Assembly (NCBI GenBank): GCA_016214565.1
Contig: JACROE010000002.1
Coordinates: 37,820 to 101,819, forward strand
Length of the DNA: 64,000 nt
From: Candidatus Kerfeldbacteria bacterium
Lineage (GTDB): Bacteria; Patescibacteriota; Patescibacteriia; UBA10025; JAHIVO01
Reading direction: 5' to 3'
The position numbers and the translations under genes are program-made. Shown here piece by piece: positions 4,270-59,778 of this stretch. A model generated the notes under the pieces. The model made no database searches and was not told the DNA's origin. It worked only from the letters and a program-made list of their open reading frames with translations. Each line of letters begins with the position of its first letter. Positions within the stretch are counted from its first letter, which is position 1.

Positions 4270-4294
4270 TGTCCTGAATGTAGCGAAGAATCTC
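4270..4294 (+). repeat. Partial solo copy of the dispersed 28-nt repeat family, ending in ...agcgaagaatctc
   Basis: gtcctgaatgtagcgaagaatctcg matches the 3' half of the motif found at 16086-16113, and in reverse complement at 16173-16220 and 11297-11317. Confidence 0.35.
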
Positions 4295-4312
4295 GTTTTT
4301 TACTAATCCGAT

Positions 4313-10279: not shown

Positions 10280-10876
10280 TTACTTCCCCTCCCCCTCCAT
10301 TAGTTTATCAATTAAATCGCGTAAGTAGTCAGCCTTCGTCTTCTTGGATCGCTTTGCCTTTTGCTCCAGATATCGTTCCATACGAGGCGTGATGCGAAGC
10401 GTAAATTTAATGGTGGGGCGCTGTTTCAAGCCTTTGCCTGAGGTAACATCATCTATAAAATTCATCAGAACCTGCTCCAACGATTCGCGTGAATACTCCT
10501 CCATACACACGAATTCCGGGGTATTTTTCTTGGTTAAATACCCATGAGAAACTCGATCAGGCGTATTCTTATGAAACAAATAGAGCAACGGCTTTTTCTG
10601 GGAAATCGCGTAGGCCAATAAATACCCAATCTCCTGATCCGGCTGAGATGCCTCAATCACGAAGCAATCCATTTTATCCAGCAAAATTTCCCCCGACTGC
10701 TGCATCGCCTCCAGATCTTCCTTGCGGAAATCGGTATTATTTTCATTTGATGATGAAACGACAAAGACGCCGGCATTGCGGAGAATTTCCGCGATGCGTC
10801 CGTATTGGTCGCTCAGGTTATTATTTGATATGGCTGGCTGGAAAAAGTAAGCTCTCATGTTTTTATAAGTTGTCAC
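10280..10876 (-). CDS. Fusion of a nucleoside 2-deoxyribosyltransferase-like (NDT-fold) domain to a C-terminal ribbon-helix-helix DNA-binding domain
   Basis: 198 aa. The N-terminus shows the NDT pattern RAYFFQP ... DCFVIEASQPDQEIGYLLAYAISQKKPLLYLF (D-x-E-hG-Y-h-h-A-x-x-KP). The C-terminus TIKFTLRITPRMERYLEQKAKRSKKTKADYLRDLIDKLME is CopG/RHH-like. Stop is 2 nt from the next gene start. Confidence 0.5.
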   Translation of the reverse strand: MTTYKNMRAYFFQPAISNNNLSDQYGRIAEILRNAGVFVVSSSNENNTDFRKEDLEAMQQSGEILLDKMDCFVIEASQPDQEIGYLLAYAISQKKPLLYLFHKNTPDRVSHGYLTKKNTPEFVCMEEYSRESLEQVLMNFIDDVTSGKGLKQRPTIKFTLRITPRMERYLEQKAKRSKKTKADYLRDLIDKLMEGEGK

Positions 10877-11317
10877 TCTGAGTTATGTGGCAGGAGATGC
10901 CGAAACAAGTTCGGCATGAGGACTTTTTTATACCCATCATTCGTCCTCCCGCCTCATCCTGAACTCGTTTCAGGATCTCAGACATACCATTCTACTGATA
11001 AATCATTAAAGTGTTGGTTCATAGCTCGTACTAAATTTAACTTCCAGTCACGATGCCAATTCTTCAATTGTTTCTCTCGTGCAAACGCATCGGTTGCCAT
11101 GAAAAATTCTTCATAATATACAAGCTTATTAACATTATATTTCTTTGCGAAGCCTAGAATTTCCTTTGACTTATGCTGTCTTACTCTACCCTCCAGATTC
11201 CTTGTGGTTCCAATATATAAAACTGAGTTGGTCTTATTTGTCATAATATATACGTAATACTGCTTTTCAGTCGGCATAGAGATGCTTCACTCCACTGCGT
11301 TTCGTTCAGAATGACAA
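10871..11317 (-). mobile_element. GIY-YIG gene cassette bounded by imperfect terminal inverted repeats
   Basis: Left end tgtcactctgag at 10871-10882. Right end ttcagaatgaca at 11305-11316, which is the reverse complement tgtcattctgaa, a 10/12 match. The right end extends into the longer family motif cgtttcgttcagaatgacaa. No target-site duplication is evident. Confidence 0.4.
10978..11277 (-). CDS. GIY-YIG nuclease family protein, YhbQ/Slx1-like single domain
   Basis: 99 aa. YYVYIMTN...VLYIGTTRNLEGRVRQH has the GIY-YIG core with Arg and Glu/His. Confidence 0.8.
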   Translation of the reverse strand: MPTEKQYYVYIMTNKTNSVLYIGTTRNLEGRVRQHKSKEILGFAKKYNVNKLVYYEEFFMATDAFAREKQLKNWHRDWKLNLVRAMNQHFNDLSVEWYV

Positions 11318-14783: not shown

Positions 14784-16073
14784 TTACCTCCACTCAGCGC
14801 TCTGTCTGACCAAGAGCTCCCCTGCCTGAGTCGGCTCGGCCATCAATTCCTTAGTTACCCGCTCCATGCGAGCTCCCTGCGATCCTTTAATAAGGATAAT
14901 GTCTCCGGTTTTAATTTTTTCTTGGACAAATTTACCAGCCGCCTCAGTATCAGAAAAACGAACCACGCGATCAACGGGCATACCAGCAGCTTCAGCGCCA
15001 TCGGCGATCCATTTTGCCCGTTCACCGACGGTAACCAAATAATCAGCGGCACCCATGACATGTTGACCCACATCTTCATGTCCCTCCTGGGTATACTGCC
15101 CCAGCTCAAGCATGTCCCCCATCACCACATATTTCTTCCCTGAAACTTTAACCTCTTTCAAAAGTTGTAACGCCGCATTTGCCGCCAATGGCGAGGAATT
15201 ATAGGTATCGTCAATCAATGACGTATGTTTAATGCCGGGGATGAGACGCATCCGACCCGCGGGAGACTGATACTCGCGCAACGCAGCTGAAATGTCCGCC
15301 AGGTTCATGCCAAAAGCGATGCCGACCGCTGCAGCCGCTAGACCAGCATACACTTGATGCTGACCTAAGACCGAGGGAAGAAAAACGGGGACATTGGCAC
15401 CCTTGTATTGTAATTTAAAACTTAATCCCTTTATCTGGACGTCCACCCAGGGATCATCCGATGGACCTGAGGAAATGCGCACGTCGCTGGCGCGTACCGT
15501 GGCACTGTCAGAAAAACCAAAAGAAATGATTTCCGCCCGGACCTTATCCTGACAACTCATGACTAATGAATCATCCGCGTTCATCACTGCAAAATTATCC
15601 TTCTTCAGATGTGTAACAATAATGGATTTTTCCCGCGCGACCTTTTCCACACTGCTAAATAATTCGAGATGTGCCGGACCAACTGCCGTGATCACGCCGA
15701 CGGTACAGGGCGCCAGCTCAGTCAGCGCCTGAATGTCGCCGGGCCGATCCGCGCCCATTTCTAATACCAGATATTCCGGATATGAGGTATCGCGCACCAG
15801 AATCAACCAAAGTGCCTTGAAAAAAACACCGAGCCAGGCAAACGGATTTGAATTTCCGGAAGCCGCTCCTATGATCGACAACGGCGTACCAAATTCATTA
15901 TTGTAGTTCTTGTAATTTTTTCGGGTGCGGTATTTCGTGCGCAGTACCGTATAAATTGCCTCAACGGTAGACGTCTTACCCACGCTTCCCGTCACGCCAA
16001 TAACGTGTGGCTGATATTTTCTTAATATCATCCGTGCCAGCATTTGTAATTTCCAGATAATGAGTTTCTTCAT
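14784..16073 (-). CDS. murF: Mur ligase family protein, MurF-like UDP-MurNAc-tripeptide--D-Ala-D-Ala ligase lacking the usual N-terminal domain
   Basis: 429 aa. P-loop VIGVTGSVGKTST at aa 24-36, whereas MurF normally has it near aa 105. Central and C-terminal Mur ligase domains are present (DDTYNSSP, GDMLELG). Confidence 0.7.
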   Translation of the reverse strand: MKKLIIWKLQMLARMILRKYQPHVIGVTGSVGKTSTVEAIYTVLRTKYRTRKNYKNYNNEFGTPLSIIGAASGNSNPFAWLGVFFKALWLILVRDTSYPEYLVLEMGADRPGDIQALTELAPCTVGVITAVGPAHLELFSSVEKVAREKSIIVTHLKKDNFAVMNADDSLVMSCQDKVRAEIISFGFSDSATVRASDVRISSGPSDDPWVDVQIKGLSFKLQYKGANVPVFLPSVLGQHQVYAGLAAAAVGIAFGMNLADISAALREYQSPAGRMRLIPGIKHTSLIDDTYNSSPLAANAALQLLKEVKVSGKKYVVMGDMLELGQYTQEGHEDVGQHVMGAADYLVTVGERAKWIADGAEAAGMPVDRVVRFSDTEAAGKFVQEKIKTGDIILIKGSQGARMERVTKELMAEPTQAGELLVRQSAEWR

Positions 16074-16085
16074 ATTGTTTTTGCT

Positions 16086-16220
16086 GTCACTCTGAGCGAA
16101 CGCGAAGAGTCTCTATGACATTAATTAAACGATACATTAACAGTATACCACTCCACATGGTCAATCGTCATTGAGATTCTTCGGTCGTCGAGCTGAGCTC
16201 GACTTCCCTCAGAATGACAA
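16086..16220. mobile_element. ORF-less 135-bp miniature element made of two inverted copies of the 28-nt repeat motif
   Basis: The forward copy gtcactctgagcgaacgcgaagagtctc is at 16086-16113. The reverse copy gagattcttcg[gtcgtcgagctgagctcgacttcc]ctcagaatgacaa is at 16173-16220 and carries a 24-nt internal palindromic insertion. It sits in the murF-ftsI intergenic space. Confidence 0.4.
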
Positions 16221-16229
16221 GTGAGGTGA

Positions 16230-17999
16230 TCACTCAACCGTCTCTTCCGGCGGCACATTATAATAATTCAACATAAATTGAGCGAGATCGCCGAAGAGCG
16301 GCGCAGCGGTGGACTCGGCAAATCGCACGTCGCGCGGCTTGTCCAGCTTGACGCACATAGCAAAGATTGGGTTATCGGCTGGCGCAAACCCACAAAATGT
16401 TCCAATAGTAAAATCTGGATCATAACCTGGGCCATCCGTGCGAGGAATTTGTGCTGTGCCAGTTTTACCTGCGACGAAATACCCCGGCACGCCCGCGCGC
16501 TGGCCGTGGCCATTTTGCACTACCTTTACCAGCATGGCCCCCAGCGTCGTGGCGGTTTGAGGCTTCAATACCTGACGGATTTCTTTTGGCTCTGTTTTAA
16601 TGCTGACCTCATCAGATTTCACTACTTCATCAACAATATATGGCTGCATCAGTTTGCCACCATTGGCGATGGCACTATAGGCGGCCACCATTTGCAGTGG
16701 AGTGACAGATAAGCCCTGCCCAAATGAGGCAGTCGCATTGTAAATCTCCTGATGCTTTTCCACAGATGAAATATCACCCTGGGCTTCTGAATTCAATTCA
16801 AGATTATATTTTTCACCAAATCCAAATTTCTTCACATATTCCTCCATGGTTTCTGGTTGTAGCTGACGTGAAACAAAAATCATTCCGGTATTTAATGACT
16901 GCTCCAATACTTGCGTCATCGTATTCGTACCATGCGCTTCACCGTCAGAATTTTTAATAGTGTACGGCCCGATTTTTTCTGAGCCGGTATCAACATAGGT
17001 GGTGGTTGGCGTCACCGCTCCGGTATCAAGAGCCGCGCCCATGATAATCGGTTTAAACACCGAGCCTGGTTCATAAATATAGAATGTAGCCGGATTAAGA
17101 TATGTGTTAATATCCTCCACCTTATTATATTCATTCGGATCAAAATCCGGCGCGCCGCACATCGCGAGTATGGCGCCCGTATGAGGATTCATGATGGTGA
17201 CGCTACCTCCGTCCGCCCCATGCTTGGCTACCGCTTCATCCAACCGTTTACAAGTCTCGTATTGGATTGTTCGATCAATGGTTAAAATAAGGTCTGAACC
17301 GTCATCAGCCTCCTCAAGCAATTTTGTACCAAACGTTATCCAGCGACCTTGCGCGTCTTTTTCTGCCTGGAGAAACCCCGCCGTACCAGCGAGTTCTTCA
17401 TCCCAGTATCCCTCCAGGCCGTATTGTCCTTTTTTTTGATCAGTGGTAAATCCAAGGAATCCCAGCAGGTGCGAGCCTATATTTTTTTCTGGATAATACC
17501 GGTAATACTCTTCCTGAAACTGAATGCCCGTCAGATTCATTGCCTTAATTGTATTCATAGTCGCCTCGTCAACTTGGCGCTTGATTGGCTCATATAAATC
17601 ATTTTCTCGTTTCAAACGCTCGAGAATTTGAACTTTTTCCTCATCGTCAAATTGAATCACTGAGGCCAGTTTGTCATACGTGCCTTGCGGATCCTCAATG
17701 CGCATTGGCTCAGCATATACCAAAAAGAATGATTTATTGGTCGCCAGGGGGTACTTCGTATCAGGATCATCCTTGTCTCGTACAAAAATTTCTCCGCGGC
17801 GCGGCGACAGCTGTTCATACAAATTATGCTGATCCGCCGCCAAGGCCTCATAAAATGAATGTTGAAATATTTGAATATCAGCCAATCTAACGGTAATAAT
17901 TGCTCCGATGAAAAAAATCGCCCCGGTCAAATAATCGAGTCGTTCATAACGCCGCGTGGTTCTGGTATTCTGTTGTGCGTGCGGTGATCGTCGTCGCAT
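16230..17999 (-). CDS. ftsI: Peptidoglycan D,D-transpeptidase, penicillin-binding protein 2/3 class
   Basis: 589 aa. N-terminal TM segment, SVFKP (SxxK), SNT-like and KTGTA motifs, and a PBP dimerisation domain. Confidence 0.9.
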   Translation of the reverse strand: MRRRSPHAQQNTRTTRRYERLDYLTGAIFFIGAIITVRLADIQIFQHSFYEALAADQHNLYEQLSPRRGEIFVRDKDDPDTKYPLATNKSFFLVYAEPMRIEDPQGTYDKLASVIQFDDEEKVQILERLKRENDLYEPIKRQVDEATMNTIKAMNLTGIQFQEEYYRYYPEKNIGSHLLGFLGFTTDQKKGQYGLEGYWDEELAGTAGFLQAEKDAQGRWITFGTKLLEEADDGSDLILTIDRTIQYETCKRLDEAVAKHGADGGSVTIMNPHTGAILAMCGAPDFDPNEYNKVEDINTYLNPATFYIYEPGSVFKPIIMGAALDTGAVTPTTTYVDTGSEKIGPYTIKNSDGEAHGTNTMTQVLEQSLNTGMIFVSRQLQPETMEEYVKKFGFGEKYNLELNSEAQGDISSVEKHQEIYNATASFGQGLSVTPLQMVAAYSAIANGGKLMQPYIVDEVVKSDEVSIKTEPKEIRQVLKPQTATTLGAMLVKVVQNGHGQRAGVPGYFVAGKTGTAQIPRTDGPGYDPDFTIGTFCGFAPADNPIFAMCVKLDKPRDVRFAESTAAPLFGDLAQFMLNYYNVPPEETVE

Positions 18000-26578: not shown

Positions 26579-28855
26579 ATGATGGACACAGGATTTTCAT
26601 ACGGTAAATTACTGATACAGCCCCGCGAGCGGCATCGATCCATCGCGACGGTATACGTATCCCAACCTCCCGCTGCAGAAGCGCAGCGCCTGGGGAGGAT
26701 ATTTTTTGTTGGGGAAATCGCGCTGCCCGATGAGCGGCTCGCGCGTATTCTCGATTCCCTCGCTGACGAAGTGACACGCAATTATTACGGAACAGATGAC
26801 CTCAATACCGAAAAAGCATTTGAGCGTTCCCTGGAGTTCCTCAATCACCGTATTGCCGACCTGATTGGCGATGCAGATACAAATTGGCTGGATCATTTCG
26901 GAGGGCTCGTGGCCGCAGTAACCACGCAGACCATATATATGAGCACCGTTGGTCCGATTAATGCATTTTTGATTCGCCACCAGCGCATTACCGACATTAT
27001 TGCCGCAGCCGGTGACACCAATGAGCGCCAAGCGCCAAATCCACTTAAGGCATTTTCAAATATTATTTCCGGAGACGCCGCGCCAGATGACGTACTCATG
27101 TTTACCACTCCCAGCGTACTTGATTATTTCTCGCTCGAAAAATTGCGCCGTACGGTCAGCGATCGCCATCCCAGCCAAGCGGCCAGTCAGTTGCAATCTC
27201 TATTGATGGAGAATGAAAATCGCGCCACATTTGCCGCGGCGTTGGTTCAAATCAGACCGATGCCGGTGCCTAGCCAAGCAATGAGTGCAACGCAGCCTAG
27301 TAATACACCTTCGTACACTCGTCCGCTTCCACAATCCCCCGCCGAATCAATGCAGAGTTTATTGCAAAAGCAGGCTGACACGGGCAATATTCTTACCCCG
27401 TCGCTGACACGGTACCTGCGAGAACGCATCGGCGGCATGGTTGAGCGTGCTTTTGACTTTATGCGCCTCAAATTATTCCGCCAATCTCCTCGTCGCGTCC
27501 GGCTTGAGCGCGACCTCCGCGCCTACCAAGCCGCGCACCGTCCACCCGCACGGGTCACGGACGGAGAACGCCATCAGCCGACTCCGACAGTTATCGACGT
27601 AGCAAAAAAAGTCAGCGCAGCTGGAGCACACGTGGGAAAAGGACTGCGTAATCTGGTGGGACAACGAAAGCAAGTTACCACGACTGTGCAGGAAGCTCCA
27701 CGACGGCTACAGCACTGGCTGACCACTGCTATCAAAGCTTTCCAGCGCCTACCACGAGTGAGCAAAATCTTGCTTGGACTCGCCATCATTATTGCCTTTG
27801 CCCTATCTCAAGGCCTCTATTCGACGGCGATGTCTCGCTTTAAAAACCAAGAAAGCATCGCGCACGACCAGCTATTTAACCAGGCCGAAGACGCAATTAT
27901 TCGAGCGCAGGCGGCCATTAGTTATGACAATATGACTGGCGCCCAGGAACTACTGAATTCTGCGGAAACGTTGTTGGCTGATCTCGAGCCGTCCGGCGAT
28001 CAAGAAGAATCAAAACGAACCTCACTGCAAAACCAGATTGCCACTGAGCGCCAAAAAACATACCGAATTGTCAATTTAGAGAATCCGCGTCTCATGACTG
28101 ATCTAGCGACCACTGGTACAGCGCTCAATCCGATTGGACTCGTGCAGATTGGAGACGTGCTGTACTCAGCCGACTCAAATAGTAAAACCGTTTACCGCAT
28201 TGCCGCTGATGGAAATGTGACTTCATTCCCCAATTCCGCCACTGACCACACCTGGCTTGATATCGTAGTTGATAACAAAAAATTGGTGCTCCTCGGATCA
28301 AATAACTCCGTTGACTTCTTTAATACTGAAACAGAGCGGTTCGCTAATCAAGAATTCAAGCTCCCGGCTGAAGCAAACATTGTCGACACCGCCACCTACC
28401 TGGGCCGATATTACCTTCTCGACATCCGCAATAACCAAATTCTCCGCGCAAACGCGGCGGGCAACGGGTATGCCGCCCCAACCAATTGGATTACCGATGG
28501 CACTGAAGTCAGCCGTGGCACGAGCCTGGCAATTGATGGATCAATTTATGTCGGACAAGGTGATGGAAGCATAATCCGTCTAACCAGCAGCATCCGCCAA
28601 GAGTGGAGCGTTAACCAAATTGAACCAGCACTTTCCTCAATCGACACCGTCTGGACCGGCGCAGAGGCAGACTATCTCTATCTCCTCAATCGATCCAGCA
28701 AACGCATTGTTGTTATCACAAAAAATGGAAGTCTTGTTCGCCAATTCACCGCTGCATCTTTTGATAAGCTGACCGACCTATCGGTAAGTGCTGACGAAAA
28801 GCAAATTACCGTCTTGAACGGTACCGCGGTCGTCCAGTTTGCTAATGAAGAATAG
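26579..28855 (+). CDS. Membrane protein: degenerate cytoplasmic PP2C-fold (pseudophosphatase-like) domain, one TM segment, then an extracytoplasmic region ending in beta-propeller-like repeats
   Basis: 758 aa. PP2C-like blocks GGLVAAVTTQTIYMSTVGP, DDVLMFTTPSVLDYFS and ENENRATFAAALVQI have the canonical metal-binding Asp residues replaced. TM segment ILLGLAIIIAFALSQGLY. C-terminal repeats VYRIAADGNV, IYVGQGDGSIIRL, IVVITKNGSL. Confidence 0.45.
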   Translation: MMDTGFSYGKLLIQPRERHRSIATVYVSQPPAAEAQRLGRIFFVGEIALPDERLARILDSLADEVTRNYYGTDDLNTEKAFERSLEFLNHRIADLIGDADTNWLDHFGGLVAAVTTQTIYMSTVGPINAFLIRHQRITDIIAAAGDTNERQAPNPLKAFSNIISGDAAPDDVLMFTTPSVLDYFSLEKLRRTVSDRHPSQAASQLQSLLMENENRATFAAALVQIRPMPVPSQAMSATQPSNTPSYTRPLPQSPAESMQSLLQKQADTGNILTPSLTRYLRERIGGMVERAFDFMRLKLFRQSPRRVRLERDLRAYQAAHRPPARVTDGERHQPTPTVIDVAKKVSAAGAHVGKGLRNLVGQRKQVTTTVQEAPRRLQHWLTTAIKAFQRLPRVSKILLGLAIIIAFALSQGLYSTAMSRFKNQESIAHDQLFNQAEDAIIRAQAAISYDNMTGAQELLNSAETLLADLEPSGDQEESKRTSLQNQIATERQKTYRIVNLENPRLMTDLATTGTALNPIGLVQIGDVLYSADSNSKTVYRIAADGNVTSFPNSATDHTWLDIVVDNKKLVLLGSNNSVDFFNTETERFANQEFKLPAEANIVDTATYLGRYYLLDIRNNQILRANAAGNGYAAPTNWITDGTEVSRGTSLAIDGSIYVGQGDGSIIRLTSSIRQEWSVNQIEPALSSIDTVWTGAEADYLYLLNRSSKRIVVITKNGSLVRQFTAASFDKLTDLSVSADEKQITVLNGTAVVQFANEE

Positions 28856-28872: not shown

Positions 28873-28897
28873 CTGCCGAGCTCAGCTCGACAGTTTT
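28873..28897. terminator. Bidirectional rho-independent terminator for the 758-aa gene (plus strand) and rplL (minus strand)
   Basis: A 10-bp stem ctgccgagct / agctcgacag with T-runs on both strands. Confidence 0.6.
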
Positions 28898-45902: not shown

Positions 45903-46021
45903 AAAGTATCGTAAAGAGATCCTGCCCACCCCACTTCGCGGAGCGAGGCCGGGAAAACGAGTTCAGGATGGCTTCGCCAGATTGTCACGTCGATCCGCTC
46001 CTCGCCATGACGGAGATAAGG

Positions 46022-59328: not shown

Positions 59329-59388
59329 CGGGGATTGGCCTAATTTCCGCCTAAGGCGGATCAGCCTCTGGCTGAGGCGAAACTTCTT
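59329..59388 (+). pseudogene. 5' fragment of a tRNA, truncated by the GIY-YIG gene
   Basis: cggggattggcctaatt (17 nt) and ctaaggcg are identical to the acceptor 5' strand and D-arm of the downstream tRNA-Pro. No T-arm follows; the sequence runs straight into the ATG of the GIY-YIG ORF. Confidence 0.4.
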
Positions 59389-59637
59389 ATGTTTACTGTA
59401 TATGTTTTGAAAAGTAAACGTAACGGAAAACGCTACGTTGGATACACATCAAAGAAGCCAACTCTACGATTGGGGGAACATAACCAAGGTTCTAATACGT
59501 GGTCTCGACATAACGGTCCATTTTCACTGATACATACTGAAAAATTTCCTGATAAAACATCTGCTATCAAACGTGAACGATTTCTGAAGTCAGATGTGGG
59601 AAGAAAATGGCTTGACAGTTTCCTGTCTGATGTCTGA
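59389..59637 (+). CDS. GIY-YIG nuclease family protein, second copy
   Basis: 82 aa. VYVLKSKRNGKRYVGYTSK...RLGEHN GIY-YIG core. Confidence 0.75.
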   Translation: MFTVYVLKSKRNGKRYVGYTSKKPTLRLGEHNQGSNTWSRHNGPFSLIHTEKFPDKTSAIKRERFLKSDVGRKWLDSFLSDV

Positions 59638-59649
59638 CGCGATCTCCGT

Positions 59650-59723
59650 CGGGGATTGGCCTAATTGGCTAAGGCGCACGATTCGGGTTCGTGAGATTCC
59701 GGGTTCAAGTCCCGGATCCCCGA
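59650..59723 (+). tRNA. tRNA-Pro (anticodon CGG)
   Basis: Cloverleaf by hand. Acceptor CGGGGAT / ATCCCCG with C1:G72, as in bacterial tRNA-Pro. U8. D-stem GCCT/AGGC. Anticodon stem CACGA/TCGTG. Loop TTCGGGT with U33, anticodon CGG, G37. T-arm CCGGG-TTCAAGT-CCCGG. Discriminator A73. No encoded CCA. Confidence 0.85.
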
Positions 59724-59778
59724 CGGAGATCGGATCAAAAGCTAATAAAAAAGTCACAACAGCTGTATATTACAATTG

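What the first reader, a model, noticed from the sequence alone, without database searches (positions are those of the whole stretch)
16086..16220. ORF-less 135-bp miniature inverted-repeat element built from the same 28-nt motif, plus a solo fragment at 4270-4294
Between murF and ftsI there are two inverted copies of the motif gtcaYtctgagcgaa(c)gcgaagaRtctc, one forward at 16086-16113 and one as reverse complement at 16173-16220, about 60 bp apart. The second copy carries a 24-nt palindromic insertion, gtcgtcgagctgagctcgacttcc. A truncated copy, ...tagcgaagaatctcg, sits upstream of the pgk promoter. Together with the termini of the GIY-YIG cassette, this defines a dispersed repeat family that inserts into intergenic spaces of essential operons. 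The 13-mer cgagctgagctcg from the inserted palindrome recurs, in reverse complement, inside the terminator at 28884-28896.
Basis: seen in the sequence. Interest (0 to 1): 0.5.

Follow-up and report, generated by a model that had tools for sequence, protein, structure and literature searches.

The report
Paired hairpin sites for Ssn nuclease
The 135-bp element is a real pair of inverted hairpin repeats of the kind recognised, as single-stranded DNA, by a small GIY-YIG nuclease (Ssn) that is encoded 5 kb away; this repeat-nuclease system was described in 2025, so this is a new example with a variant hairpin, not a new kind of element.

Summary
Two inverted copies of GTCAYTCTGAG…GAAGARTCTC lie at 16086-16113 (+) and 16173-16218 (-), 59 nt apart, between ftsI and murF. 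Each copy is itself a hairpin. The "24-nt insertion" is the variable hairpin tip that is normal for this family.

The motif occurs in at least 120 genomes across many phyla, and 57% of copies sit in the same convergent pairs. The GIY-YIG gene at 10978-11277 fills the spacer of such a pair. So do its relatives: 67 of 80 have a flanking hairpin.

That gene is 44% identical, without gaps, to the gonococcal counterpart of SsnA. SsnA is the site-specific single-stranded-DNA nuclease of Chenal et al. 2025 (PMC11893778), whose genes are flanked by hairpin repeats (NTS/SRM).

The element is therefore an ORF-less SRM doublet in a Patescibacteria genome. New here:
- a hairpin class with tandem G·A pairs that the published SRM search string misses;
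- the convergent-doublet layout;
- presence or absence of the element at the same site in related genomes.

Whether Ssn moves these repeats is unproven. The 28875 palindrome match is real but unexplained.

The parts
16086..16113 (+). Left hairpin of the doublet (SRM-type, tandem-G·A class): GTC tag, stem ACTCT/AGAGT, tandem G·A, GC/GC, loop GAAC, then C
   Evidence: profile E=7e-7
16114..16172 (.). 59-nt spacer. Its ends (TATGAC / GTCATT) extend the inverted symmetry. No ORF of note (a 19-codon reading frame only).
16173..16218 (-). Right hairpin of the doublet: GTC tag, stem ATTCT/AGAAT, tandem G·A, GG/CC, and a long tip with the 7-bp stem GTCGAGC/GCTCGAC (16187-16203)
   Evidence: (DNA fold z=-2.5)
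10978..11277 (-). ssn homolog: single-domain GIY-YIG protein of 99 aa; Y10, Y21 and E68 align with Y6, Y17 and E64 of the gonococcal SsnA counterpart
11279..11315 (-). Degenerate hairpin copy 1 nt upstream of the ssn ATG (GTCATTCTGAAC…TGAAGCATCTC); it no longer folds well
10954..10977 (+). Fully paired hairpin copy (TCATCCTGAA-CTCGT-TTCAGGATC) abutting the ssn stop codon, whose TGA overlaps the GAGA end of the motif. Together with 11279-11315 it forms a convergent pair that encloses the gene.
   Evidence: z=-4.0; E=2e-8
10872..10919 (.). Further hairpin copy at 10896-10919 (-), plus a half copy GTCACTCTGAG at 10872-10882 (+): a decayed second doublet beside the cassette
   Evidence: (z=-5.8)
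4270..4295 (+). Solo decayed copy (tgtcctgaatgtagcgaagaatctc) 82 nt upstream of pgk
   Evidence: (E=6e-4)
45916..46011 (-). Two overlapping same-strand degenerate hairpin copies (GTCATGGCGAGG…CGAAGCCATC, then CATCCTGAAC…GCAGGATCTC) in the spacer between a surface protein gene and a CAP-domain gene
   Evidence: (E=0.03)

Best explanation
The 135-bp element is a convergent pair of Ssn-related motifs (SRM, the class that includes the Neisseria NTS/dRS3 repeats).

Anatomy. Each arm is a small DNA hairpin that reads 5'-(T)GTC-A-stem … stem-T-C-3' on one strand only. The left arm reads correctly on the + strand and the right arm on the - strand.

Partner. The partner is the 99-aa single-domain GIY-YIG protein at 10978-11277, a member of the Ssn family. 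Its own gene sits inside such a pair.

Mechanism.
- Shown for four homologs in PMC11893778: when the DNA is single-stranded, the hairpin folds, Ssn binds it (stem sequence plus the C just after the stem) and cuts a few nucleotides 5' of the GTC tag. It acts on neither duplex DNA, nor RNA, nor the complementary strand.
- Inferred here: the window's Ssn treats these hairpins the same way.
- Inferred here: because the pair carries one readable hairpin on each strand, whichever strand is exposed or imported carries a cut site. The two predicted cuts fall just outside the element, near 16080 on + and near 16224 on -.

Origin (inferred). The doublet is an ORF-less relative of the hairpin-ssn-hairpin cassette. 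It was gained at this site in one lineage, since a related genome has an empty site.

Effect on the host. Unknown. Control of recombination with single-stranded DNA, as in Neisseria, is the only tested precedent.
For: 1. Hairpin with covariation. At positions my selection pattern left free, Watson-Crick pairing is 92/92 and 92/92 in the G·A class and 85/85, 78/85 and 84/85 in the paired class. Shuffle means are 34-73. In the genome scan every GTCAC went with GAGTC and every GTCAT with GAATC, 140 of 140. Opposite the 'GA' lie GA (227) or TC (45) in 286 unique copies.

2. Conserved tag. G before TCA and C after TGA are present in 100% of 108 doublets, although the pattern did not require them. 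T at -2 is 76% and A at +2 is 83%. These are the positions the paper finds critical for cutting (3 nt upstream) and for binding (C after the stem).

3. Doublet layout. 154 of 269 hairpins lie in + then - pairs with gaps of 2-99 nt; the counts are 77 convergent, 15 divergent and 9 tandem. In 80 of 110 pairs the two arms have different stems, so the local hairpin is what is kept, not arm-to-arm pairing.

4. Link to the gene.
- The ssn ORF fills the spacer of a pair in the window, in L056 (Omnitrophota) and in L064 (Lutibacter).
- Among 80 relatives picked by protein alone, 30 have a + hairpin within 120 nt upstream and 28 a - hairpin within 120 nt downstream under the strict pattern; the downstream gaps cluster near the stop codon.
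- Under a general GTCA-hairpin pattern the counts are 51, 51 and 67 (either side) of 80, where well under 1 is expected.

5. Family membership. BLASTP to a 94-aa N. gonorrhoeae ORF gives 44% identity over 88 residues with no gaps, E=7e-25; tblastn against a 7.3-Gb database gives E=3e-15. That ORF has Y6, Y17 and E64 and is flanked by NTS repeats. 8 of 80 relatives are flanked by dRS3-type hairpins, 2 of them by the exact NTS consensus.

6. Gain or loss at the same site. The ftsI-murF spacer is 30 nt and empty in L202. In L206 it holds a different doublet (stems ATCCT and ACACT, both self-complementary).
Against: - The published degenerate SRM search string matches none of the window's hairpins, nor the consensus of either class.
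- The hairpins next to the window's own ssn gene are of another class (paired CTGAA type) or degenerate. They are not the G·A class of the doublet, so it is not shown that this enzyme is the cognate one.
- In the gonococcal locus the nearest hairpins point the other way round (- upstream, + downstream).
- No biochemistry exists for this branch of the family.
- Only 64 kb of the genome is available, so copy number is unknown.
- The CDD assignment to cd10448 could not be run.
Confidence: 0.8

Rival explanations
1. The doublets are the primary, independent repeats, maintained by something other than Ssn. The ssn gene is a selfish passenger that homes into their spacers, so the 16086-16220 element owes nothing to Ssn.
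For: No transposase-like family, and only 3 ssn genes, lie near the hairpins in 120 genome loci. None lies near them in 120 viral-contig loci. The ORF fits the spacer precisely, as expected of an insertion into a pre-existing pair.
Against: The conserved tag positions are the ones that published SsnA needs for binding and cutting. Protein similarity tracks hairpin class (59% against 55% identity, permutation p=0.0005). The paper reports that 81% of genomes with more than 200 SRMs have an Ssn homolog.
Confidence: 0.1
2. Its main role is in RNA: an intercistronic stem-loop in the ftsI-murF transcript that stabilises or attenuates the mRNA, as proposed for REP elements.
For: The element lies inside the dcw operon on the transcribed region. 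As RNA the whole element folds at -56.5 kcal/mol, z=-5.9.
Against: - A close relative has a 30-nt spacer with no structure at the same site.
- The conserved unit is the local hairpin, not the long arm-to-arm stem: 80 of 110 pairs have unlike arms.
- Loops are C-GNA-G, and the tandem G·A pairs are readable on one strand only. Any transcript therefore carries one good arm and one arm with pyrimidine mismatches.
- Copies lie in either orientation and in any kind of spacer.
- SsnA does not bind RNA.
- Rfam gives nothing.
Confidence: 0.07
3. It is a REP/REPIN element mobilised by a RAYT or IS200/IS605-type tyrosine (HUH) transposase.
For: The overall layout is the same: two inverted palindromic units, a short spacer, and a conserved 4-nt tag next to the stem.
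Against: The tag is GTCA, not GTAG or CGTC. No shared transposase family turned up among ORFs of 120 loci. The enclosed gene is GIY-YIG in the window and in its relatives.
Confidence: 0.02
4. It is a chance inverted repeat.
For: None beyond its short length.
Against: 4 hits against 0.15 expected in the window. At least 120 genomes and at least 120 viral contigs carry exact matches. Covariation is strong.
Confidence: 0.01

Closest known systems
NTS / SRM repeats with SsnA (Ssn family, GIY-YIG cd10448), Chenal et al. 2025, PMC11893778
   Same: Both have a hairpin repeat with an oriented GTC tag before the stem and a C after it. Both have copies flanking a roughly 94-99-aa single-domain GIY-YIG gene and many ORF-less copies in intergenic DNA. 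The protein is 44% identical to the gonococcal counterpart and has the same catalytic Tyr, Tyr and Glu.
   Different: - The stem here is AYTCT + tandem G·A (or CTGAA/TTCAG) instead of ATTCCCGCG, and the published search string does not find it.
- The host is Patescibacteria.
- In this branch the hairpins around the gene converge (+ gene -). In the gonococcal locus the nearest ones diverge.
- No biochemical data exist for this branch.
dRS3 repeats and Neisseria intergenic mosaic elements (NIME)
   Same: Both have short palindromic units in inverted orientation that bracket 50-150-bp segments in intergenic DNA. dRS3 is the core of the NTS. 8 of 80 relatives of the window's protein are flanked by ATTCCC-N8-GGGAAT.
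   Different: The stem sequence differs. No arrays occur in this window. The link of NIME layout to this doublet is from my own knowledge, and was not tested further.
REP / REPIN / BIME with RAYT (TnpA-REP)
   Same: Both show doublets of inverted palindromes with a spacer, a conserved tag next to the stem, a small nuclease gene flanked by its own repeats, and action on single-stranded hairpins.
   Different: The enzyme fold differs (GIY-YIG hydrolase, not an HUH tyrosine enzyme that forms a covalent intermediate). The tag is GTCA. The same motif is spread across many phyla, whereas REP classes are lineage-specific.
IS200/IS605 insertion sequences
   Same: Both have subterminal hairpins recognised as single-stranded DNA, and neither makes a target-site duplication.
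   Different: There both end hairpins are on the same strand and the transposase is a Y1 HUH enzyme. Here the two hairpins are on opposite strands.
Bacterial MITEs such as Correia elements
   Same: Both are short, ORF-less, bounded by terminal inverted repeats and intergenic, and both can be co-transcribed with neighbouring genes.
   Different: No target-site duplication is seen here. Each terminus is itself a hairpin. The related coding element carries a nuclease, not a DDE transposase.

Membership tests
SRM / NTS repeats (Ssn-related motifs) | 20-50-nt inverted repeat that forms a hairpin | tested here: met
   Stems pair at free positions in 92/92, 92/92, 85/85, 78/85 and 84/85 cases. The pair closing the stem after GA is Watson-Crick or G-T in 263 of 286 unique copies.
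SRM / NTS repeats (Ssn-related motifs) | Oriented, conserved GTC just upstream of the stem and C just after it (the positions critical for cutting and binding) | tested here: met
   Both window arms read GTCA…T-C. G at -1 and C at +1 are present in 108/108 doublets without being required by the pattern.
SRM / NTS repeats (Ssn-related motifs) | Match to the published search string HGTCWYN(0-2)YYVSBRHN(0-5)WNVSBRGN(0-2)RNCYNB | tested here: not met
   0 of 4 window hairpins and neither class consensus match. The string does match the NTS control. There are only 19 hits in the 80 ssn loci. The string is a search aid built from 29 genomes, not a definition.
SRM / NTS repeats (Ssn-related motifs) | Copies flank an ssn gene on both sides | tested here: met
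   Window copies at 11279-11315 and 10954-10977 flank the gene at 10978-11277. The same holds in L056 and L064. Among relatives, 51/80 have a copy upstream, 51/80 downstream and 35/80 both.
SRM / NTS repeats (Ssn-related motifs) | Bound and cut by the cognate Ssn as single-stranded DNA only, on one strand only | not testable with these tools
   Needs purified protein and oligonucleotides.
Ssn nuclease family (cd10448) | Single-domain GIY-YIG protein of about 94 aa | tested here: met
   99 aa; Pfam GIY-YIG covers residues 6-81, E=2.7e-20, with no other domain.
Ssn nuclease family (cd10448) | Homology to Neisseria SsnA at E<1e-10 (the paper's criterion) | tested here: met
   tblastn to the N. 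gonorrhoeae chromosome gives E=3e-15. BLASTP to the 94-aa ORF there gives 44% identity, no gaps, E=7e-25. That ORF has Y6, Y17 and E64 and NTS flanks. The gonococcal counterpart was used as a stand-in for N. meningitidis SsnA.
Ssn nuclease family (cd10448) | CDD assignment to cd10448 (GIY-YIG_unchar_3) | not testable with these tools
   No CDD search is available. The nearest solved structures are UPF0213 proteins 1zg2 and 1ywl at E=6.5e-9 and 4.7e-6, which are a neighbouring family.
Ssn nuclease family (cd10448) | Catalytic Tyr, Tyr, Glu (Y6, Y17, E64 in SsnA) | tested here: met
   The gap-free alignment puts Y10, Y21 and E68 opposite them.
REP / REPIN - RAYT | Associated Y1 (HUH) transposase gene flanked by the repeats | tested here: not met
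   Clustering of all ORFs of 80 aa or more in 120 loci gave no shared transposase family. The enclosed gene is GIY-YIG. Limit: only 8 kb per locus was searched.
REP / REPIN - RAYT | Inverted doublet of palindromic units with a short spacer | tested here: met
Classical MITE | Target-site duplication at the ends | tested here: not met
   No excess of 2-8-nt direct repeats at three offsets in 108 doublets.

The most novel reading that the evidence does not exclude
The convergent hairpin doublets are non-autonomous mobile units copied by the Ssn nuclease. That would make a small GIY-YIG single-stranded-DNA nuclease the engine of a REPIN-like system found across bacterial phyla.

Because the two hairpins are on opposite strands, the predicted cuts bracket the unit on opposite strands. 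Fill-in of such ends would duplicate the whole unit, which would also explain the tandem arrays seen in some genomes.

The 2025 paper raises mobility only as a hypothesis. Here the empty and filled orthologous sites, and the ORF that exactly fills a doublet spacer, fit the idea but do not prove it.
Probability: 0.3. Interest if true: 0.75.

Novelty: new member of a known kind. Interest (0 to 1): 0.35.

Why it matters
The finding extends the Ssn/SRM system to Patescibacteria and to a hairpin class that the published search pattern does not detect. That class has tandem G·A pairs and GNA loops. Current counts of SRMs are therefore likely too low.

The convergent-doublet layout and the empty and filled ftsI-murF sites give concrete material for testing whether Ssn spreads its own sites. 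That is the main open question about this family.

Each new enzyme-hairpin pair is also a candidate tool for site-specific cutting of single-stranded DNA.

Tried and rejected
- Rfam at gathering threshold over the whole window, and at E-value threshold over 15900-16400, gave only a tRNA and two chance hits.
- A hammerhead-like reading of CTGAG…GAA was considered by eye and dropped: the core GA before stem II and A14 are missing.
- Full-text searches for the motif as a word returned only primers. Searches for GIY-YIG with CPR, MITE, COG2827, YhbQ or REP/RAYT found nothing relevant. The dRS3 lead from memory found the Ssn paper.
- The search for a shared transposase near the hairpins was negative.
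- The target-site duplication test was negative.
- The published SRM string gave no match.
- The paper's supplementary files are not held.
- MAFFT alignment of the three orthologous spacers was uninformative because of indels. The comparison rests on reading.
- A possible remnant of the ssn ends in the doublet spacer (ATGACGATTGA against ATGCCGACTGA after the hairpin) is too short to judge and is confounded by the inverted symmetry.
- The viral-contig scan shows the motif there too, but no ssn gene beside it.

Full report
**The sequence**

The + strand at 16086-16113 reads GTCACTCTGAGCGAACGCGAAGAGTCTC. The reverse complement of 16173-16218 reads GTCATTCTGAG-GGAAGTCGAGCTCAGCTCGACGAC-CGAAGAATCTC. 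The two are 59 nt apart. The repeat finder reports both arm pairs.

The element lies between a PBP transpeptidase gene (ftsI, 16230-17999) and a Mur ligase gene (murF, 14784-16073), both on the - strand. MurF relatives place the contig in Patescibacteria. The contig is a 74.7-kb Logan assembly of SRR12113407.

**Each arm is a hairpin**

The pyrimidine at position 5 and the purine near the 3' end change together: C with G in the left arm, T with A in the right.

The fold is A-YTCT / AGAR-T, then a tandem G·A, then a G:C pair, then a variable tip. In the right arm the tip is a 7-bp stem. In the left arm it is two pairs and a 4-nt loop.

**Is it more than chance, and how widespread is it?**

A pattern that asks for TCAxyCYGA, then within 5-48 nt its complement Y'Gy'x'TC, finds 4 sites in the window against 0.15 in shuffles. 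The sites are the two arms plus 10896-10919 (-) and 10954-10977 (+). A profile search adds four further sites:
- the solo decayed copy at 4273-4295;
- the degenerate copy at 11278-11317;
- the half copy at 10870-10882;
- a probable pair of same-strand decayed copies at 45916-46011.

The hits span Chloroflexota, Acidobacteriota, Nitrospirales, Bacteroidota, Omnitrophota, Verrucomicrobiota, delta- and gammaproteobacteria, Clostridia and several CPR groups. In all 140 matches C went with G and T with A. The tip ranged from 3 to 33 nt and was nearly always self-complementary, most often with a C-GNA-G loop.

At stem positions that my selection pattern left free, pairing was 92/92 and 92/92 in the G·A class. 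It was 85/85, 78/85 and 84/85 in a second, fully paired class (CTGAA…TTCAG). Both are far above shuffles. Opposite the 'GA' stand GA (227) or TC (45) in 286 unique copies.

**The doublet is the usual form**

Of 269 hairpins in those loci, 154 lie in + then - pairs with gaps of 2-99 nt. The counts are 77 convergent pairs, 15 divergent and 9 tandem. The window's 59-nt gap lies in the upper part of that range.

The base before TCA is G and the base after TGA is C in all 108 doublets with full flanks. T at -2 is 76% and A at +2 is 83%, so the ends read YTGTCA…TGACAR. No target-site duplication appears.

In 80 of 110 pairs the two arms carry different stems. The conserved structure is therefore the local hairpin, not the long arm-to-arm stem that the folding programs prefer for the whole element.

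**The GIY-YIG link**

On the - strand the window reads as follows: hairpin (11315-11279), one base, the ATG at 11277, a 99-codon GIY-YIG ORF, then a TGA stop that overlaps the GAGA end of an inverted hairpin (10977-10954). The same layout occurs in an Omnitrophota locus and a Lutibacter locus.

I then collected 80 relatives by protein similarity alone (47-65% identity).
- Under the strict pattern, 30 have a + hairpin within 120 nt upstream, 28 a - hairpin within 120 nt downstream, and 18 both. Downstream gaps cluster near the stop codon (about half lie between -8 and +8 nt) and most upstream gaps are under 60 nt.
- A broader pattern (GTCA, five paired bases, then C) raises this to 51, 51 and 35, with 67 of 80 having at least one. 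Well under one is expected.
- The stems fall into many classes: ATCCT, ATGCT, ATTCC, ATTGC, ACCCT and others.
- Proteins whose flanks share a class are slightly more alike (59% against 55%, p=0.0005). Host relatedness may explain part of that.

No transposase family recurs near the hairpins.

**What is known**

The stem ATTCCC…GGGAAT in some flanks recalled the Neisseria dRS3 repeat, and a search on that term found Chenal et al. 2025. Their findings:
- Half of the dRS3 copies are a longer oriented repeat, NTS (CGTCATTCCCGCGMAVGCGGGAATCYRG).
- NTS-like hairpins (SRM) flank homologs of a 94-aa single-domain GIY-YIG gene, ssnA, in 71% of cases.
- SsnA binds the hairpin only as single-stranded DNA and only on one strand, and cuts a few nucleotides upstream.
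- The C after the stem is the key base for binding. The three bases before the stem are key for cutting.
- Y6, Y17 and E64 are needed for catalysis.
- RNA and duplex DNA are not touched.
- In N. meningitidis the system lowers transformation by NTS-bearing DNA.
- The NTS-ssnA-NTS layout is compared to IS200/IS605 and REP/RAYT, but spread by the enzyme is left as a hypothesis.

A later preprint already treats these repeats as a standard class.

**Membership**

Two Neisseria gonorrhoeae chromosomes are filed as plasmids in PLSDB. The window's protein hits one of them at E=3e-15. The ORF there is 94 aa, has Y6, Y17 and E64, and is surrounded by NTS copies.

BLASTP gives 44% identity over 88 residues without a gap, E=7e-25. 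Y10, Y21 and E68 lie opposite the three catalytic residues. Eight of the 80 relatives are flanked by dRS3-type stems, two of them by the exact NTS consensus. The protein is thus an Ssn by the paper's homology criterion. The CDD assignment could not be run.

The hairpins meet the structural and positional features of SRMs. They do not match the published degenerate search string, which also misses both class consensuses. I read that as a limit of a string built from 29 genomes, and I file the element as a new member with a variant stem.

One difference is noted. Around the gonococcal gene the nearest hairpins diverge (- upstream, + downstream), whereas in the window's branch they converge.

**Gain or loss at the site**

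The orthologous ftsI-murF spacer was compared in related genomes.

| Locus | MurF identity to window | ftsI-murF spacer |
|---|---|---|
| L202 | 74% | 30 nt, no hairpin |
| L206 | 76% | a doublet with other stems (ATCCT/AGGAT and ACACT/AGTGT) and a 16-nt spacer, between similar flanks |
| L203-L205 | 73% | an unrelated 208-nt insert |

The element is therefore not an ancestral part of the operon. Where it persists, both stems stay paired through double changes.

**How it most likely works**

- Shown for homologs: strand-specific binding of the folded hairpin and cutting 5' of the tag.
- Inferred: the window's enzyme does the same on these stems.
- Inferred: the tandem G·A pairs and GNA loops are favourable on the GTCA strand but become pyrimidine mismatches on the complement, which fits a single-strand, one-strand-only reader.
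- Inferred: a convergent pair places one readable site on each strand, so either exposed strand is cuttable, with cuts just outside the unit.

Whether this serves the host (control of recombination with incoming single strands) or the element (copying) is open.

The palindrome of the right arm does recur at 28875-28891, in a T-tailed hairpin between an unnamed ORF and rplL: 2 hits against 0.07 expected. I have no explanation for it. Nothing points to a preference for essential operons.

**Verdict**

This is a real and well-defined feature. It belongs to a system published in 2025. It carries a variant hairpin class, a clear doublet architecture, and comparative evidence of gain or loss. Interest is modest.

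Noticed in passing
window 59329-59724: A second, different small GIY-YIG ORF (59389-59634, 82 aa; 37% identical to gonococcal SsnA over 67 residues) lies between a 17/18-nt copy of the 5' end of tRNA-Pro (59329-59346) and the intact tRNA-Pro(cgg) at 59650-59724. No GTCA hairpins flank it. The layout looks like an insertion at the tRNA gene.
   Followed up: partly
window 28875-28891: GCCGAGCTCAGCTCGAC lies in a T-tailed hairpin between ORF 26579-28855 and rplL. It matches the tip of the right arm (16187-16203) in 16 of 17 bases: 2 hits against 0.07 expected. Unexplained.
   Followed up: partly
L203-L205, 2293-2500: Relatives with 73% MurF identity carry an unrelated 208-nt insert, with its own hairpin (GTGACCGCTTTT…AAAAGCGGTCA), at the same ftsI-murF spacer. 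The site seems prone to insertions.
   Followed up: no
L005, L012, L039, L065, L073: Doublets from Acidobacteriota (and one bin labelled Saccharimonadales) share a box caggctgcggaaaaa about 15 nt upstream of the left hairpin, as if a longer unit were repeated.
   Followed up: no
L068 3547-4078; L139, L141, L154: Some genomes hold arrays of hairpins. Pedobacter nototheniae has 5 direct copies about 135 nt apart, and some metagenome loci have 4-14 hairpins around the ssn gene.
   Followed up: no
L207-L326 (IMG/VR contigs): The same motif occurs in at least 120 viral or proviral contigs: 264 hairpins and 37 convergent pairs in 1.09 Mb, with no Ssn-like ORF in those stretches.
   Followed up: partly
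L327 (N. gonorrhoeae NZ_CP119140.1, 1880778-1884041): A 2.17-Mb gonococcal chromosome is filed as a plasmid in PLSDB and has almost no annotation. The ssnA counterpart there (locus 1498-1782) is unannotated.
   Followed up: yes
window 10280-10876 (-): The 198-aa ORF just downstream of the ssn cassette has no Pfam match. Its GTG start lies within the half hairpin copy at 10872-10882.
   Followed up: no
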